From Candidatus Brocadiia bacterium (GTDB lineage Bacteria; Planctomycetota; B143-G9): a stretch of DNA of 13,897 bases. Where the stretch lies: the NCBI GenBank assembly GCA_041648755.1, contig JBAZOJ010000071.1, positions 1 to 13,897 on the forward strand. The letters are read 5' to 3'. Below are positions 1,025 through 11,070 of the stretch, piece by piece. How positions within the stretch are numbered: the first letter of the stretch is position 1; each line of letters starts with the position of its first letter. The position numbers and the translations under genes were made by a program. Below the pieces are notes generated by a model. It ran no database searches. It worked only from the letters and a program-made list of their open reading frames with translations, and was not told the origin of the DNA.

Positions 1025-1762
1025 CTACAGCTCGGAATACCTGAAACGGTTCCAGAGGTCAGTTGCGATTTTCCATGGCCTGCACTCTACGCCGAAGCGC
1101 TCGAAGTACGACGCCAGGTTCTCGATGTCGCGCCCGAGGAACATACGGGCGTTGGAATTAAATCGGGGGTCAACTGCCTGCGGGAAGTCGATGATCCGAA
1201 TATGCCCGTTCCAGTACAGTACGTTGTACGGCGACAGGTCGGAATGCACCACATTGCAGGACAAGAACCTCTCGATATTTCCCATCACGCGCCTGAACAA
1301 GAGCTGAGCCTCGTCCCTGGAAGGGCGGTGCTCGCGCAGGGGCGGAGCGGGCGAGTCGTCGTGACCCGCAAGCTCCATCAGGATGGCGCAGCCGCGCAAC
1401 GCGATAGGACGGGGCACATCCGCGCCCGCTGAATGCAGAGCGCGAAGGGTCTCGTACTCGTTGGCCACCCACATACCATGCTGGACGCGTTTGCCGAAAT
1501 CGGTCTTCTTGGCGAACGCAACCTGCTCTCGGCGCTTCCCCATTACGCGCCCTTCGGAATATGCAGCATCGTTACGAAAGCCGCGCCCCGTAAGTGGGCG
1601 ATACACCTTGGCGGCCACGTAACTCGAACGACTCTTCCTGGTGCCACGGCAACAGAAGACCGTCGCCTCCTTACCGCTCTTCACCTGAAACAGGACTTCG
1701 CTAACGAACCCTTCATAGAGGAAGGGCTCGATGAATTCGATCAAATCCGGATTGTCGGACAT
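1025..1762 (-). CDS. RIO-type serine/threonine protein kinase (RIO1 family, atypical kinase).
   Basis: 245 aa. ATP-binding Lys context VAAKVYRP. Catalytic and metal-binding loop VVHSDLSPYNVLYWNGHIRIIDFPQAVD matches RIO1 (HxDLSEYN...IIDxxQ). Size is typical of stand-alone RIO kinases. Confidence 0.7.
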   Translation of the reverse strand: MSDNPDLIEFIEPFLYEGFVSEVLFQVKSGKEATVFCCRGTRKSRSSYVAAKVYRPLTGRGFRNDAAYSEGRVMGKRREQVAFAKKTDFGKRVQHGMWVANEYETLRALHSAGADVPRPIALRGCAILMELAGHDDSPAPPLREHRPSRDEAQLLFRRVMGNIERFLSCNVVHSDLSPYNVLYWNGHIRIIDFPQAVDPRFNSNARMFLGRDIENLASYFERFGVECRPWKIATDLWNRFRYSEL

Positions 1763-1866: not shown

Positions 1867-1926
1867 CAGGCGGCCAGTCTGGCCGCCTGAAAACAAAGCG
1901 GCCGCCCGTTTCCGGACGGCCGCCAA
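1867..1926 (-). terminator. Two tandem GC-rich hairpins on the minus strand. The upstream one (1926-1900) is followed by a U-run and is the likelier intrinsic terminator.
   Basis: Minus strand reads GCGGCCGTCCGGAAACGGGCGGCCGC + TTTGTTTT, then CAGGCGGCCAG-A-CTGGCCGCCTG + TTCGTTCTCT. They sit downstream of the 15-codon mini-ORF and about 100 nt upstream of the RIO kinase start. Confidence 0.45.
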
Positions 1927-2088: not shown

Positions 2089-2119
2089 GAAAACGGCGGC
2101 TGAAGCCGCCGTTTCCGGA
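2089..2119. terminator. Hairpin with flanking T-runs on both strands; the probable intrinsic terminator of the Lys-rich micro-gene (minus strand).
   Basis: Plus strand: GGAAAACGGCGGC TGAA GCCGCCGTTTCC. On the minus strand, stem CGGCGGC/GCCGCCG is followed directly by TTTTCC. Located 26 nt downstream of the micro-ORF stop (2145). Confidence 0.45.
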
Positions 2120-2144
2120 GAAAAGCTCTTGAGAAGAAGTTGTG

Positions 2145-2216
2145 CTACTTCTTCACCGGCTTCTTCGCGGGCTTCTTCTCTTCCTTCTTGGGCTCGCACT
2201 TCTTGCATCCAGCCAT
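2145..2216 (-). CDS. 23-aa lysine-rich micro-protein or leader peptide, MAGCKKCEPKKEEKKPAKKPVKK (13 of 23 residues Lys, all AAG; CxxC pair).
   Basis: Minus strand reads CCTAAGGAGGAAAACATGGCTGGATGCAAGAAGTGCGAGCCCAAGAAGGAAGAGAAGAAGCCCGCGAAGAAGCCGGTGAAGAAGTAG. SD AAGGAGGA lies 4 nt upstream of ATG (2216..2214); stop TAG at 2147..2145. Preceded by a strong promoter (2313-2285) and followed by a terminator (2119-2089). It is not in the supplied ORF track because it falls below the length cut-off. Confidence 0.45.
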   Translation of the reverse strand: MAGCKKCEPKKEEKKPAKKPVKK

Positions 2217-2284
2217 GTTTTCCTCCTTAGGATGAAAAGGGTTATGGCTCAACCGAAAGCACGCGTTGGCGCGCTACTGCCAAT

Positions 2285-2313
2285 AGTGTAGCAGAAATGT
2301 TCCCGCTTGTCAA
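2285..2313 (-). promoter_or_regulatory. Sigma70-like promoter on the minus strand driving the micro-gene: -35 TTGACA, 17-bp spacer, -10 TACACT.
   Basis: Minus strand reads cTTGACAagcgggaacatttctgcTACACTattggc. Perfect consensus -35 at 2313..2308, -10 at 2290..2285, spacer exactly 17 nt. Predicted TSS is near 2278, giving a ~60-nt 5' UTR to the SD. Confidence 0.5.
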
Positions 2314-2338: not shown

Positions 2339-3163
2339 CTACTTCGCCGAGTTCTCGTATGCCGTGATGAACAGACGGGCGGTAAATACGGCCGCGGCGT
2401 CAATTCGTTCCTGTGCGAACTCGCGGACTTTATCAGACTTGATCACCCCGGAATTTGCTGGAATTTCCGGCTCCAGCGCGAAAACTGTCTCCACGAGCCC
2501 ATGGCTCTTATCAAGCTCTGTGGCTATTTCCATGAGGATGCCATTCCAGGAGTAAGGTTTCAGGCCGTTTACACAAGACCTTGTGGATTGCAGCTTTATG
2601 AGCAGCCAATCGACCCTCGAATGAAGGTCCTTTCCCTTGTGCTCTTCCTTGCCGTCGTAGAACACTGTGGTGTGCAATGGGTTGCAGAGATCCTGTGCGT
2701 AGTGGGCCAGCACGCCAGCGTACACAAGGCACTTTGCCTGGAGTTCCTTGCTGTCGGTTTTGTACCTGTAATTGTTAAAGGCTGTCGCCAGCCTGCCCGT
2801 CCATTCTGCAACCGCGTACGGAAGCATTCCGACATGCTCTGCGACTAAGTCCTTGTCATGGCACATCTTATAGAATGCCCATCGGTCGGTAGGAAGTGGA
2901 GATCTGCTCAGCTTCTCCATGTTGATGAAATGTTCGGGCTCCTCTGTGGAGCCGAGGATCTTGCTGCCATAGCTTCTGAAGGAGTCGGGGTCGTCCGAGG
3001 CCAACACTGCGTAAGCGGCGCCTTTGGCGAAGAACTCGGGCAGTCCCGCGCCCTGTGTGGCAACGGCAGCTTCAGTTATTGTTCGGTGCACAGCATGTGA
3101 CCAGCCGACAAATAGCACCGAAACGGAAACCAGTATCAGCAGTGGCGTTCGCGTGGCACGCAT
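2339..3163 (-). CDS. Secreted S1/P1-family zinc-dependent nuclease (same phospholipase C/P1 nuclease superfamily fold).
   Basis: Mature N-terminus WSHAVHRT corresponds to Trp1/His6 of the P1 nuclease zinc site. LAHYAQDLCNPLHTT matches P1 HFIGDxxQPLH. EHFIN matches LHFID. DLHSRVDWLL matches NLHSDWD. An N-terminal signal peptide is predicted to cleave just before the Trp. The six-frame ORF starts at 3190 (MRYRNTEGAMRATRT...), but the second ATG at 3163 is preceded by GGAGGG (5-nt spacing) and is the preferred start. Confidence 0.6.
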   Translation of the reverse strand: MRATRTPLLILVSVSVLFVGWSHAVHRTITEAAVATQGAGLPEFFAKGAAYAVLASDDPDSFRSYGSKILGSTEEPEHFINMEKLSRSPLPTDRWAFYKMCHDKDLVAEHVGMLPYAVAEWTGRLATAFNNYRYKTDSKELQAKCLVYAGVLAHYAQDLCNPLHTTVFYDGKEEHKGKDLHSRVDWLLIKLQSTRSCVNGLKPYSWNGILMEIATELDKSHGLVETVFALEPEIPANSGVIKSDKVREFAQERIDAAAVFTARLFITAYENSAK

Positions 3164-3394
3164 TGCACCCTCCGTGTTACGATATCTCATACAATTCTAC
3201 TCACGGTGAATATGCCGGTCAACCTCGTGTGCTCTCTGGCGAAATTTTCCGTGGACCAAAGCGAGGACGTAACCTGAGATCGCACGCACGTAATTCGTGC
3301 CATTCGCAATACGCGAGGTACAATGTTAGTGACTGGCACTGACCACTTGGGAATCAACCGCCGCTTAGTGAAATCTCCCGCGAAGGAGCGTCCA

Positions 3395-9240: not shown

Positions 9241-11070
9241 ATGTTGAAGAAATTCGGCCTGCTGGCCATGGCCCTTCTCGCCTTCGCGGCGCTCCCAACG
9301 GTTGCGCCCGTCGCCGACGAGATGCCCTCCGGTTCCATCACGAAGTACCTTCCGGCAAACACGATTTTCGTCGCCGAGTTCAATGACTTCAAGTCATCGT
9401 ATACGCGCGCCCAGGAACTCGGAGTCGTCAAGATGATGAACGATCCCGAGGTCAAGGCCTTCTTCGAGTCGCTGCAGGGAATGAATCCCAATAATGCGCA
9501 GGACATGGAGAAATTCAGCGAACTGATTAAGTTCTTCCAGGAGATCGAGCCATTGGCTGCAGGGCTGTTCAAGGGATATGGTTCCCTGGCAGTTGTAACC
9601 GCCAATCAGAAGGAAAAGAGCGCATATGCCGTTCTGGCAGTTCAGATCGAGCAGGGCAAGGGCGCTGAGGGCGCGGAACTGATCAAGAAGATTCTCGAAA
9701 AGGTCACGCAGCTCAATCCCGACAAGCAGATGGATATCAAGACCGAAACCATTGGCAAGTACGAAGCCACCCGCATCGCTGAAAACGGCGAAAAGCCTGA
9801 CAATGAGGCTGGTTACTACACCTTCACCGACAACTACTTTATCCTTGGTGTCGGCAAGACGTCCCTCGTCACGGCGCTTGAGGCGATGGATGCCCCCCCG
9901 GCCGAGCCCATGTCCGCCAAGCCCGAATTGCTCAAGGCCTATTCGATGCACAAGTCCAAGGAAGGCTTCTTCTTCCTCAACCTCAAGGCCCTGTGCGACC
10001 TTATGACCGAGCAGGCAGAGCCAGAGCGCGTTGAGGACCTGGCCAAGATGAAGGAAGTCGTGCGGTTCGTTCCAGCCATTTCCGGCGGAATGACCTTTGA
10101 CGGCCCCAACTTCGACGAGCAGTTGATCCTTCACTTCGGCGATGTTCCGGAGTTCGCCATGGTCAGGAGCCTCCAGGCCAAGGCTCTGTCCTTCGCAACA
10201 GCTTCGCTGATGCCCAAGGAGCCCATGTTCTACGGTGCGATGTCGATGTCAGCGGCCGAGATCCTGGAAGATCTGCCCAAGATCATTCCGAATGCGGCAC
10301 AAATGGAAGCCGGTTTCGCGATGGTTGAGCAGGCGACCGGCATTTCTGTAAGGGACAAACTGCTTCCCGCCATCGGCGACGAAGTGGGATTCTATGTCAC
10401 TATGGCCGGAATGATGCCTGAGTACCTTGCGGTCGTGACTCTGAACGACCCGGTCATTGTCAGCACAATGCTTGACGGTCTCGTTGCCATCCCCGACGGC
10501 CCTGTAACCGAGGTTGGAACATTCAAGGATCACAAGCTCTTTGCGGCTGGCGCAGGCCAGGGAAATCCCAACGCACCAGTGTTCTGCGTACACCAGAACT
10601 TCCTGCTGGTCGGCGGAATGCTCGCACTCAAGAACACCATCAACCGCAACCCGGAAGCCTCGCTTGCCACGAACGACACGTTCAAGGAAGCCCTTGCCGG
10701 ATTCGGCGACACCAAGCATAACGCGTTTGTGTTCTTCGACACCAAGAAGGCATTCGATGCCGCATACAACTTCGTTCCCATGGTTGCCGGACCCATGGCA
10801 GCCAATCTGCCAGCCAAGGAAGTCTTCACGCAGTACATCACCCCGCAGGCTTTCTCGTTCAAGGTCAACGGAGACCACGCCATCCTGCGCGCCCGTGGTT
10901 TCCTCCCCGGCTCAGTAATTCTGATGGGAGCTGGCGCAGCAATGTTCTTTTCCGCTTCCCGCATGGAACGCCGCCCTCCGCCAGACGGCGACTTCCCCCC
11001 ACCTCCTCCTGGCGACGGTGAAATGCCTGATGATCAGAATCCGCCACCGGATGAGCAGCCCAACAATTAG
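9241..11070 (+). CDS. Exported protein of unknown function, 609 aa (paralog A). Signal peptide, large soluble region, C-terminal TM helix, proline-rich acidic tail.
   Basis: ATG at 9241 is preceded by AGGAGGAAAT. Signal peptide MLKKFGLLAMALLAFAALPTVAPVA | DEMP. C-terminal hydrophobic segment GSVILMGAGAAMFFSAS, then RMERRPPPDGDFPPPPPGDGEMPDDQNPPPDEQPNN. Clear paralogy to the downstream gene (NDPEVKAFFESLQGM vs NDPEVQALFEGLKSM; GGMTFDG vs GGITFDG; LLPAIGDEVGFYVTMAGMMP vs ILPALGDEYCSYFTMQGIMP). The 82-nt gap after murJ has no terminator, so the gene is probably co-transcribed with it. Confidence 0.75.
   Translation: MLKKFGLLAMALLAFAALPTVAPVADEMPSGSITKYLPANTIFVAEFNDFKSSYTRAQELGVVKMMNDPEVKAFFESLQGMNPNNAQDMEKFSELIKFFQEIEPLAAGLFKGYGSLAVVTANQKEKSAYAVLAVQIEQGKGAEGAELIKKILEKVTQLNPDKQMDIKTETIGKYEATRIAENGEKPDNEAGYYTFTDNYFILGVGKTSLVTALEAMDAPPAEPMSAKPELLKAYSMHKSKEGFFFLNLKALCDLMTEQAEPERVEDLAKMKEVVRFVPAISGGMTFDGPNFDEQLILHFGDVPEFAMVRSLQAKALSFATASLMPKEPMFYGAMSMSAAEILEDLPKIIPNAAQMEAGFAMVEQATGISVRDKLLPAIGDEVGFYVTMAGMMPEYLAVVTLNDPVIVSTMLDGLVAIPDGPVTEVGTFKDHKLFAAGAGQGNPNAPVFCVHQNFLLVGGMLALKNTINRNPEASLATNDTFKEALAGFGDTKHNAFVFFDTKKAFDAAYNFVPMVAGPMAANLPAKEVFTQYITPQAFSFKVNGDHAILRARGFLPGSVILMGAGAAMFFSASRMERRPPPDGDFPPPPPGDGEMPDDQNPPPDEQPNN

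What the first reader, a model, noticed from the sequence alone, without database searches (positions are those of the whole stretch)
2089..2313. Self-contained micro-gene encoding a 23-aa peptide that is 57% lysine (all AAG)
All elements of a transcription unit are present within about 225 bp on the minus strand. There is a consensus -35 TTGACA, a 17-bp spacer and a -10 TACACT. A ~60-nt leader follows, then SD AAGGAGGA and ATG. The ORF is MAGCKKCEPKKEEKKPAKKPVKK (13 Lys, runs of AAG AAG, one CxxC pair). A hairpin/U-run terminator lies 26 nt after the stop. It falls below the length cut-off of the supplied ORF track and is antisense to a spurious 64-aa plus-strand ORF. Two readings are possible. 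(a) It is a genuine small basic protein, either nucleic-acid/ribosome-binding or a half zinc knuckle that dimerises. (b) It is a lysine-codon-rich regulatory leader whose translation speed reports lysyl-tRNA availability, in the classic attenuator logic. The next minus-strand gene, ~380 nt downstream past further hairpins, is the RIO kinase. RIO kinases are ribosome-biogenesis factors in archaea and eukaryotes.
Basis: seen in the sequence. Interest (0 to 1): 0.7.

Follow-up and report, generated by a model that had tools for sequence, protein, structure and literature searches.

The report
Unannotated lysine-rich 23-residue micro-gene
An uncultured planctomycete carries a tiny, unannotated gene with its own promoter, ribosome-binding site and terminator hairpin, encoding a 23-residue lysine-rich peptide with one Cys-x-x-Cys pair; it looks like a real small-protein gene, not a lysine-sensing switch, and its function is untested.

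Summary
The transcription-unit anatomy is real, but the lysine count is wrong: 10 of 23 residues (43%), not 13 (57%). On the minus strand lie TTGACA-17-TGcTACACT, a 5' stem-loop, AAGGAGGA 5 nt before ATG, the ORF MAGCKKCEPKKEEKKPAKKPVKK, and a 12-bp GC hairpin 28 nt after the stop. This combination occurred in 0 of 1000 shuffled windows. The ORF has the best codon score of 110 small ORFs in the window. "All AAG" is only the genome's codon bias (87% AAG).

The attenuator reading fails. The terminator stem stays at probability 0.999 wherever a ribosome is placed. Two stronger terminators follow, and the downstream gene is a RIO kinase.

Conservation cannot be tested. The source, a Candidatus Brocadiia MAG, has no relatives closer than 56% (RIO kinase) or 44% (upstream gene). 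No similar ORF flanks homologues of either neighbour.

A truncated metagenome scan for the peptide's architecture found Shine-Dalgarno-bearing Cys/poly-Lys micro-ORFs. One, MAGCCGCGPKKAVKK..., is 14/23 identical to this peptide.

Best reading: a genuine orphan micro-gene for a polycationic peptide, probably binding polyanions. Moderately interesting and unproven.

The parts
2308..2313 (-). -35 hexamer TTGACA
   Evidence: It is part of a 10/12 sigma-70-like site.
2285..2293 (-). Extended -10, TGcTACACT, 17 nt after the -35. The inferred transcription start is near 2278.
   Evidence: TG_before_second = yes. The start site is inferred, not mapped.
2258..2275 (-). 5'-proximal stem-loop of 7 bp with loop CAAC, at +3 to +20 of the inferred transcript
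   Evidence: -10.7 kcal/mol, z = -3.0. A role as an mRNA stabiliser is inference.
2221..2228 (-). Shine-Dalgarno AAGGAGGA. Its GGAGG core lies 5 nt before the ATG.
   Evidence: In this window, GGAGG followed by ATG at 4-8 nt occurs 7 times, and 4 of these are starts of long real genes.
2145..2216 (-). Micro-ORF of 23 codons plus TAG, encoding MAGCKKCEPKKEEKKPAKKPVKK (10 Lys, 3 Glu, net charge about +7, one CxxC)
   Evidence: Codon log-likelihood ratio is +0.86 bits per codon in this frame, against -22.2 and +3.8 bits in total for the other two frames.
2148..2178 (-). In-frame 12-nt tandem repeat, 2.6 copies at 89% match, encoding the (KKPx)n tail
   Evidence: (family D1).
2131..2139 (-). 3'-UTR tract CUUCUUCUC, perfectly complementary to codons 13-15 (GAGAAGAAG, 2172-2180). 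Significance unknown.
   Evidence: I13. It is paired in the minimum-free-energy structure.
2089..2116 (-). Terminator-like hairpin T1: GGAAACGGCGGC-UUCA-GCCGCCGUUUUC, with a short U-run
   Evidence: I2; -21.5 kcal/mol, z = -5.7. It is not listed by the terminator scan because its U-tract is shorter than 5.
1867..1924 (-). Two strong tandem intrinsic terminators, T2a (1924-1897) and T2b (1889-1867). They would stop any read-through before the RIO kinase gene.
   Evidence: -26.9 and -20.2 kcal/mol. They rank first and third in the terminator list for the window.

Best explanation
This is a stand-alone, unannotated small-protein gene.

How it is expressed:
- A sigma-70-type promoter with an extended -10 drives a transcript of about 190 nt.
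- The transcript begins with a short stem-loop and carries a near-perfect Shine-Dalgarno sequence 5 nt before the ATG.
- It encodes a 23-residue peptide and ends at a GC-rich hairpin (T1). Two strong terminators further downstream act as a backstop.

The product:
- The peptide is an intrinsically disordered polycation (net charge about +7).
- It has an N-terminal M-A-G-C-x-x-C motif followed by KK-x-x repeats. These repeats arose by in-frame 12-nt repeat expansion.

Inferred mechanism (not shown):
- The Lys-Pro-Ala tail binds a polyanion such as DNA, RNA, the ribosome or polyphosphate. This would resemble histone-H1-type KKPAKK tails or the tiny basic ribosomal proteins.
- A single CxxC cannot form a metal site on its own. 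It may bridge two peptides through a shared metal ion or a disulfide.

The gene is independent of the RIO kinase downstream. I put the probability that it is a real translated gene at about 0.6. I put the polyanion-binding mechanism at about 0.3.
For: - Promoter, SD, ATG, ORF and hairpin are all present at proper spacings.
- The composite occurs in 0 of 1000 shuffles.
- The only other 10/12 promoter in the window precedes the neighbouring real gene, so such promoters are used in this organism.
- Four of the seven GGAGG+ATG sites in the window are true gene starts.
- Codon usage is the best of 110 small ATG ORFs. Its non-Lys codons score just below the real genes (+0.19 against 0.20-0.53), and the other frames score poorly.
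- The repeat period is 12 nt, which is in frame.
- The stop codon is followed by a hairpin, and the in-frame continuation after the stop runs through that hairpin.
- In the architecture scan of metagenomes, strong SDs were enriched among hits (6 of 118 against 1.1 expected, P = 9e-4).
- All six SD-bearing hits share Ala2 and extra Cys residues that the pattern did not demand (Fisher p = 1.6e-4 and 5e-4).
- One of them, L357 (MAGCCGCGPKKAVKKAVKKAVKAPKKAVKKKKK), matches this peptide at 14 of 23 positions. That includes 7 of the 16 positions not fixed by the search pattern. The next best hit matches 5, and most match 0-1.
Against: - There are no transcript, ribosome-footprint or peptide data.
- The exact sequence is absent from 15 billion predicted proteins.
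- There are no hits by profile or sequence search in 1.84 billion representatives, Pfam, NCBIfam or the PDB. That is expected for 23 low-complexity residues and is uninformative.
- No close relatives of the organism exist. The best RIO kinase homologue is 56% identical and the best upstream-gene homologue is 44%. Purifying selection therefore cannot be measured.
- The only other copy, L002, is 100% identical over the aligned stretch that spans the whole intergenic region.
- No similar ORF lies next to homologues of either flanking gene.
- The high codon score comes mostly from AAG.
- Similarity to L357 is partly forced by the pattern and by low complexity.
- The SD-bearing class has 3 or more Cys, while this peptide has 2.
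- T1 has a weak U-tract.
- The SD is partly paired in a weak local hairpin in the minimum-free-energy fold.
Confidence: 0.5

Rival explanations
1. The functional product is the roughly 190-nt RNA itself, either a small RNA or the 3'-UTR-derived end of the upstream gene's mRNA. The ORF would be incidental or only serve RNA stability.
For: - The unit has its own promoter and hairpin, like an sRNA gene.
- The 201-nt stretch folds better than shuffles (z = -2.5), and the whole 531-nt intergenic RNA has z = -5.3.
- A CU-rich 3' tract is perfectly complementary to 9 nt of the AAG-rich region (I13).
- No terminator separates the upstream 274-aa gene from this unit.
- No peptide homologue exists in protein databases.
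Against: - There is no Rfam match at gathering score. The best sub-threshold hit is sroD, at 27 bits against a required 50.
- An 8-nt SD at ideal spacing from an ATG, gene-like codon usage and an in-frame repeat are not needed by an sRNA.
- Most of the folding z-score comes from the terminator hairpins.
Confidence: 0.2
2. It is a non-functional or very young ORF. An (AAG AAG CCN GNN)n slippage repeat happens to sit behind SD-like and promoter-like sequences. It may be translated but is not under selection.
For: - The Lys tail is a 12-nt tandem repeat, typical of slippage.
- The lineage is an orphan, so no conservation can be shown.
- Two other GGAGG+ATG mini-ORFs in the same intergenic region have non-gene-like codon usage (-0.06 and -0.47 bits per codon). 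SD+ATG alone is therefore not proof of a gene.
Against: - The full composite occurs in 0 of 1000 shuffles.
- The promoter is as good as the neighbouring gene's.
- Independent SD-bearing micro-ORFs of like design exist in other lineages, including a 14/23-identical one.
Confidence: 0.2
3. It is a lysine-codon leader peptide. Its translation rate would control transcription termination (classic attenuation) of downstream genes, including the RIO kinase.
For: - It is a short ORF with 10 Lys codons, followed 28 nt later by a hairpin and lying upstream of further hairpins.
- Amino-acid-specific sORF attenuators are known, for example the polycysteine sORFs in mycobacteria (10.1101/834739, found).
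Against: - The terminator core stem keeps probability 0.999 with a ribosome at any codon. There is no competing antiterminator, and the upstream pairings do not overlap the terminator arms.
- AAG is the abundant Lys codon (87%).
- The target would be a RIO kinase rather than lysine metabolism.
- That target lies behind two more constitutive-looking terminators.
- No such ORF lies upstream of RIO in 59 genomes.
Confidence: 0.04

Closest known systems
Tiny lineage-specific basic ribosomal proteins (bS22, bL37, Thermus THX, E. coli Sra)
   Same: - They are peptides of roughly 24-45 residues that are very basic and disordered on their own.
- They are often missed by annotation and were discovered only in ribosome structures (PMC6133939, PMC10081302 and PMC10085706, found; sizes and THX/Sra from my own knowledge).
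   Different: - There is no sequence similarity. phmmer against all PDB chains of at least 20 residues, which should include those proteins where they meet that length, gave nothing at E <= 10.
- Those proteins are Arg/Lys-rich without Cys and without a KKxx repeat.
- Ribosome association of this peptide is untested.
Histone-H1-like Lys/Ala/Pro repeat tails of bacterial nucleoid proteins (Chlamydia Hc1/Hc2, Pseudomonas AlgP, actinobacterial HU/Hlp C-terminal tails)
   Same: Both have tandem short repeats of the KKPA / KKPV type that expand by in-frame slippage. Binding of DNA through such repeats is from my own knowledge.
   Different: - Those proteins are much longer (roughly 100 or more residues, from my own knowledge), with many repeats and usually a folded domain.
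- Here there are only 2.6 repeat units in a 23-residue peptide, plus a CxxC.
- No Pfam or NCBIfam model matches.
Leader-peptide transcription attenuators (trp/his/leu type; polycysteine sORFs of mycobacteria, 10.1101/834739)
   Same: Both are very short ORFs enriched in one amino acid and followed by a terminator hairpin.
   Different: - There is no terminator/antiterminator alternative.
- The enriched codon is the common one.
- No amino-acid-related operon lies downstream.
Intermolecular single-CxxC metal sites (Rad50 zinc hook)
   Same: There is one CxxC per chain, which can only complete a four-ligand metal site by pairing two chains (my own knowledge; this is an analogy only).
   Different: - The Rad50 hook sits at the apex of a long coiled coil.
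- There is no sequence or structural relationship here, and metal binding is untested.
SD-bearing Cys-rich/poly-Lys micro-ORFs found here in metagenomes (L357, L303, L336, L277, L247). This is an informal class and, as far as my searches show, undescribed.
   Same: - All have an M-A-x-C N-terminus, a second Cys three residues later, and a Lys-rich tail that runs to, or nearly to, the stop codon.
- All are 17-33 residues long with a strong SD. In the orientation shown none overlaps an ORF of 70 aa or more on its own strand, although some overlap ORFs on the opposite strand.
- L357 is 14/23 identical to this peptide.
   Different: - All six SD-bearing hits have at least 3 Cys in the first 8 residues (CxCC, CCxC or poly-C). 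This peptide has only two.
- Gene neighbourhoods all differ.
- Common descent is not demonstrable for such short low-complexity sequences.

Membership tests
Leader-peptide transcription attenuator | Short ORF enriched in codons of the sensed amino acid | tested here: met
   10 of 23 codons are Lys. However, AAG is the genome's normal Lys codon at 87%.
Leader-peptide transcription attenuator | Mutually exclusive antiterminator and terminator structures whose choice depends on ribosome position in the ORF | tested here: not met
   The terminator core pairing probability is 0.999 without a ribosome and with a 30-nt footprint at each of the 24 codons. The 5' arm finds no alternative partner.
Leader-peptide transcription attenuator | Downstream operon for synthesis, transport or charging of that amino acid | tested here: not met
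   The next gene is a RIO1-family kinase. It lies behind two further strong terminators.
Leader-peptide transcription attenuator | Leader ORF conserved upstream of the regulated gene in other genomes | tested here: not met
   No Lys-rich or basic SD-bearing small ORF lies within 3 kb of RIO kinase genes in 59 genomes. All of these are at most 51% identical, so the test is weak.
Small basic ribosomal proteins (bS22 / bL37 / THX / Sra) | Sequence homology to a described family | tested here: not met
   There are no hits in the PDB (E <= 10), Pfam or NCBIfam.
Small basic ribosomal proteins (bS22 / bL37 / THX / Sra) | Physical presence in purified ribosomes | not testable with these tools
   This needs ribosome purification, cryo-EM or mass spectrometry from an uncultured organism or a heterologous host.
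Histone-H1-like Lys/Ala/Pro repeat nucleoid proteins | Tandem Lys-Pro/Ala-rich short repeats | tested here: met
   There is a 12-nt repeat of 2.6 copies encoding KKEE-KKPA-KKPV-KK.
Histone-H1-like Lys/Ala/Pro repeat nucleoid proteins | Long repeat array and/or an attached folded DNA-binding domain | tested here: not met
   The whole product is 23 residues.
Zinc ribbon / zinc knuckle | Four metal ligands (two CxxC/CxxH pairs) within one chain | tested here: not met
   The peptide has only C4 and C7.
Polycysteine sORF attenuators (mycobacteria) | Runs of consecutive Cys codons in a leaderless sORF upstream of Cys-related genes | tested here: not met
   Here there are two Cys separated by KK, a 62-nt leader with an SD, and no Cys-related gene downstream. 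The family definition is taken from the title and abstract of 10.1101/834739.
Known RNA families (Rfam 15) | Covariance-model match at gathering score | tested here: not met
   There are zero matches in the window at gathering threshold. The best sub-threshold hit is sroD, at 27.2 bits against a required 50.
   This is partly circular, because the scan pattern was derived from this peptide.
   All six SD-bearing hits have at least 3 Cys, whereas this peptide has 2.

The most novel reading that the evidence does not exclude
The peptide would belong to a widespread but never-annotated class of prokaryotic micro-proteins. Members of the class would have these features:
- 17-35 residues.
- An N-terminal M-A-x-C-x-x-C (often CxCC) thiol cluster.
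- A poly-Lys or (KKxx)n tail.

Examples were seen in several unrelated metagenome contigs, one of them apparently archaeal. The thiols would bind a metal between chains or act as a redox switch, and the tail would tether the complex to nucleic acid, ribosomes or anionic membranes. The same N-terminus on a membrane protein of at least 92 residues (L353) hints that it is a portable module.
Probability: 0.2. Interest if true: 0.6.

Novelty: new member of a known kind. Interest (0 to 1): 0.35.

Why it matters
Genes below about 30 codons are skipped by standard gene callers. The collection's gene calls for this contig list nothing between the two flanking genes, and the peptide's exact sequence is absent from a collection of 15 billion predicted proteins. 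If the peptide is made, it adds a new small polycationic protein to a phylum, Planctomycetota, whose nucleoid and ribosome accessory proteins are little studied.

The architecture scan also suggests that Cys-plus-poly-Lys micro-proteins recur in unrelated lineages. That would be a testable new small-protein family.

The finding does not make any long-standing question directly testable, and it is not a lysine-sensing regulator.

Tried and rejected
**Direct homology searches**
- The search for related loci and the search for homologous proteins refuse queries this short.
- A doubled peptide gave 35 word-sharing candidates, none at E <= 10.
- The 35-aa TTG-extended ORF against 1.84 billion representatives gave 0 hits.
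- tblastn against plasmids gave nothing, with the low-complexity filter on.
- Pfam, NCBIfam and PDB searches gave nothing.
- The exact-sequence look-up found nothing.

**Synteny**
- The RIO-kinase scan of GTDB genomes returned 59 loci at 51% identity or less, with no Lys-rich or basic SD-bearing small ORF nearby.
- The protein database holds no RIO homologue above 56% and no homologue of the upstream gene above 44%.
- Contigs carrying four homologues of the upstream gene show different, mostly tightly packed downstream genes and no micro-ORF.
- The second sample carrying this locus is 100% identical over the aligned stretch, so it gives no evolutionary signal.

**Pattern scans**
- MAGCKKC and related patterns in viral contigs gave only chance hits inside other genes.

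**Other ideas rejected**
- "All AAG" as a signal: rejected, because it is codon bias.
- The two other SD+ATG mini-ORFs in the intergenic region as genes: rejected, because their codon usage is poor. One of them also has its start codon buried in a 12-bp stem.
- Module 2 as a duplicate of module 1: rejected, because only short chance repeats are shared.
- A truncated longer gene: unlikely. The in-frame continuation after the stop, read from the sequence, runs through the hairpin and is not Lys-rich.

Full report
**1. What is in the sequence**

Reading the minus strand, the following elements appear in order:
- -35 TTGACA at 2313-2308, a 17-nt spacer, then TG-c-TACACT at 2293-2285.
- A 7-bp stem-loop at 2275-2258.
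- AAGGAGGA at 2228-2221.
- ATG at 2216, followed by 23 codons and TAG at 2147-2145.
- A pyrimidine-rich 3' tract.
- A 12-bp GC-rich hairpin at 2116-2089, whose 3' arm ends in UUUUC, followed by CACCC.

The translation is MAGCKKCEPKKEEKKPAKKPVKK. This has ten lysines (43%), three glutamates and one CxxC.

The promoter is the only sigma-70-like hit in 1500-2900 and scores 10/12 with an extended -10. The 64-aa plus-strand ORF at 2036-2230 exists. The RIO1-family kinase starts at 1762, 383 nt after the stop.

The hairpin is stable (-21.5 kcal/mol, z = -5.7). However, its U-run is only four residues long, so the consensus terminator scan does not list it.

**2. Is it more than chance?**

Several tests say yes.
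- A composite search looked for a promoter of at least 10/12, then GGAGG with an ATG 4-8 nt later, then an ORF of 12-60 codons, then a perfect GC-rich stem of at least 7 bp. It finds exactly one site in the real window, ATG 2216. It finds none in 1000 first-order Markov shuffles of the window.
- The only other 10/12 promoter in the window (3222-3194, minus strand) sits in front of the SD and ATG of the neighbouring 274-aa gene. Such promoters are therefore used by this organism.
- Of 31 GGAGG motifs in the window, seven are followed by ATG at 4-8 nt. Four of those are starts of long genes. The other three all lie in this 580-bp intergenic region.
- The ORF has the highest codon-usage score of all 110 ATG-started ORFs of 15-40 codons in the window (+0.86 bits per codon). 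The other two frames score -22.2 and +3.8 bits in total. With the Lys codons removed, the score is +0.19 per codon, just below the real genes' range of 0.20-0.53.
- The Lys-rich tail is a 12-nt, in-frame tandem repeat.
- This is the most Lys-dense 23-residue stretch in any frame of the window.

One feature is unremarkable. AAG makes up 173 of 198 Lys codons in the window's genes, so 10 of 10 AAG has p about 0.26.

**3. Source and the conservation problem**

The flanking proteins are identical to proteins of a MAG that NCBI labels Candidatus Brocadiia bacterium, on a 22.8-kb contig. A second sample (Logan SRR8542065) carries the locus, but it is 100% identical over the aligned stretch, which spans the whole intergenic region.

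The nearest homologues among 5.8 billion proteins are only 56% identical for the RIO kinase and 44% for the upstream gene. No related genome is therefore available for a synonymous/non-synonymous test.

No Lys-rich or otherwise basic SD-bearing small ORF lies near RIO kinase genes in 59 genomes. None lies downstream of four homologues of the upstream gene either.

For a 23-residue low-complexity query that gene callers never predict, these negatives carry little weight.

**4. Architecture scan**

One metagenome pattern scan was allowed. I used a pattern that fixes only M, the first base of codon 2, C4, C7, K10, K11, K14 and K15.

Among 118 scorable hits, six have an SD match of at least 6 nt at proper spacing, against 1.1 expected from all other ATGG sites in the same loci (P = 9e-4). 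After dereplication, all six SD-bearing hits have two features that the pattern did not ask for:
- Ala at position 2 (6 of 6 against 13 of 54, p = 5e-4).
- At least three Cys in the first eight residues (6 of 6 against 10 of 54, p = 1.6e-4).

Five of the six are ORFs of 17-33 residues, in contigs from unrelated organisms, that end in a Lys-rich tail:
- MAGCSCCGSKKSKKKKE
- MASCGCCTPKKKAKKKK
- MACCSCCSSKKTTKKKPTKKKK
- MACCCCCGTKKKTKKKKKK (its contig also carries an ORF that looks to me like archaeal elongation factor 1-beta; this was not tested)
- MAGCCGCGPKKAVKKAVKKAVKAPKKAVKKKKK

The sixth is a membrane protein of at least 92 residues with the same N-terminus.

The last ORF in the list (L357) lies between a rubrerythrin-family gene and an MFS transporter. 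It matches the window peptide at 14 of 23 positions. Seven of those matches are among the 16 positions the pattern left free. The next best hit matches 5, and the mode is 0-1. Its (KKAV)n repeat units differ at third codon positions.

I read this as evidence that SD-driven Cys/poly-Lys micro-ORFs are a real and recurrent kind of gene, and that the window peptide has at least one plausible analogue. There are caveats:
- The pattern came from the query.
- The sequences are low-complexity.
- The window peptide has two rather than three or more Cys.
- Similar strings also occur by chance inside other genes (L254 and L306).

**5. The attenuator idea**

I folded the inferred transcript with a 30-nt stretch forced single-stranded around each of the 24 codons in turn. 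The seven GC pairs of the terminator core keep a pairing probability of 0.999 in every case. The pairings that involve the ORF do not touch the terminator arms.

Three further observations count against attenuation:
- The enriched codon is the common one.
- Two stronger terminators (-26.9 and -20.2 kcal/mol) lie between this unit and the RIO kinase.
- The kinase has no link to lysine.

No Rfam family matches. I therefore reject reading (b).

**6. Most likely mechanism**

Shown:
- A complete set of expression signals.
- Coding-like composition.
- A product that is a +7 polycation with a single CxxC and KKxx periodicity.

Inferred:
- The transcript ends at T1, with T2a and T2b as backstops.
- The peptide is made.
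- Its Lys/Pro/Ala tail binds a polyanion, as do H1-like repeat tails and the tiny basic ribosomal proteins such as bS22 and bL37 (PMC6133939, PMC10081302).
- The lone CxxC acts between two chains, through a metal or a disulfide.

Proximity to the RIO kinase appears coincidental.

**7. Rivals and verdict**

The rival explanations and my confidence in each are:
- An sRNA or 3'-UTR RNA with an incidental ORF: 0.2.
- A young, unselected repeat-born ORF: 0.2.
- A lysine attenuator: 0.04.

The verdict is a plausible orphan micro-gene. The regulatory interpretation is rejected, and the protein interpretation is supported by signals but not by conservation or expression data. It is a new member of the known kind "unannotated small basic proteins". 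Its interest is moderate (0.35). That would rise if the Cys/poly-Lys class proves real.

Noticed in passing
window 2017-1945 (minus strand): A second identical SD (AAGGAGGA, 2017-2010) lies 7 nt before an ATG (2002) and opens a 15-codon ORF, MRPTEAFFTGGSRPA. Its start region (2011-2000) pairs over 12 nt with its stop region (1959-1948), and its codon usage is not gene-like (-0.06 bits per codon, GC3 0.40). It looks more like a structured RNA element than a gene, and no sigma-70 promoter was found for it.
   Followed up: partly
window 1924-1867 (minus strand): Two strong intrinsic terminators in tandem (T2a and T2b, ranked first and third in the window's terminator list) lie directly upstream of the RIO kinase gene, which has no recognisable sigma-70 promoter of its own. 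The whole 531-nt intergenic RNA folds with z = -5.3.
   Followed up: partly
window 1835-1713 (minus strand): A 40-codon ORF with GGGAGGG 3-4 nt before its ATG overlaps the RIO kinase start out of frame. Its codon usage is poor (-0.47 bits per codon, GC3 0.30), so it is probably spurious.
   Followed up: partly
L357 (micro-ORF at 500-601 of the reverse-complemented locus, i.e. about 1370-1471 on the minus strand), L303, L336, L277, L247; L353:1424 onward: These metagenome micro-ORFs of 17-33 residues have strong SDs and an MA-x-C-x-C-C (or CC-x-C) N-terminus followed by a poly-Lys tail. They sit in unrelated gene neighbourhoods, including one contig that looks archaeal. L277 also has a promoter-like site and a hairpin. 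L353 carries the same N-terminus (MARCFCCGNKKADKK) on a membrane protein of at least 92 residues. No Pfam, NCBIfam or PDB match was found for the two micro-ORFs tested (L357 in all three, L277 in Pfam and NCBIfam).
   Followed up: partly
window 2131-2139 versus 2172-2180: The 3' UTR of the micro-ORF contains CUUCUUCUC, which is perfectly complementary to codons 13-15 (GAGAAGAAG). A neighbouring 3'-UTR stretch pairs with the last codons and the stop, and further CUU-rich stretches downstream (for example around 1974-1984) also complement the AAG-rich ORF. The purpose is unknown, and this could be a by-product of composition.
   Followed up: no
window 2339-3190 (minus strand): The upstream gene most likely starts at ATG 3163 (274 aa), which has GGAGG 5 nt before it and a 10/12 promoter at 3222-3194, rather than at 3190. 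It has no Pfam hit itself, but some distant homologues carry PF02265 (an S1/P1-nuclease family, from memory). It has no terminator of its own before the micro-gene.
   Followed up: partly
window 1025-1762 (minus strand); loci L003-L061: The bacterial RIO1-family kinase has thousands of homologues at about 50% identity (4806 at E <= 1e-40), seen here in Chloroflexota (Ktedonobacteria, Dehalococcoidia), Planctomycetota, Poribacteria and Bipolaricaulota. None is close to this one, so the source lineage is poorly sampled.
   Followed up: partly
L169, minus strand, ATG at 10540 (viral contig): There is a 34-residue Lys-rich ORF without Cys (MPRVGKKKFAYTAKGKAAAKKHAKKTGKKMKKKY) behind a 7-nt SD. It is another unannotated-looking basic micro-ORF, unrelated in sequence.
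   Followed up: no
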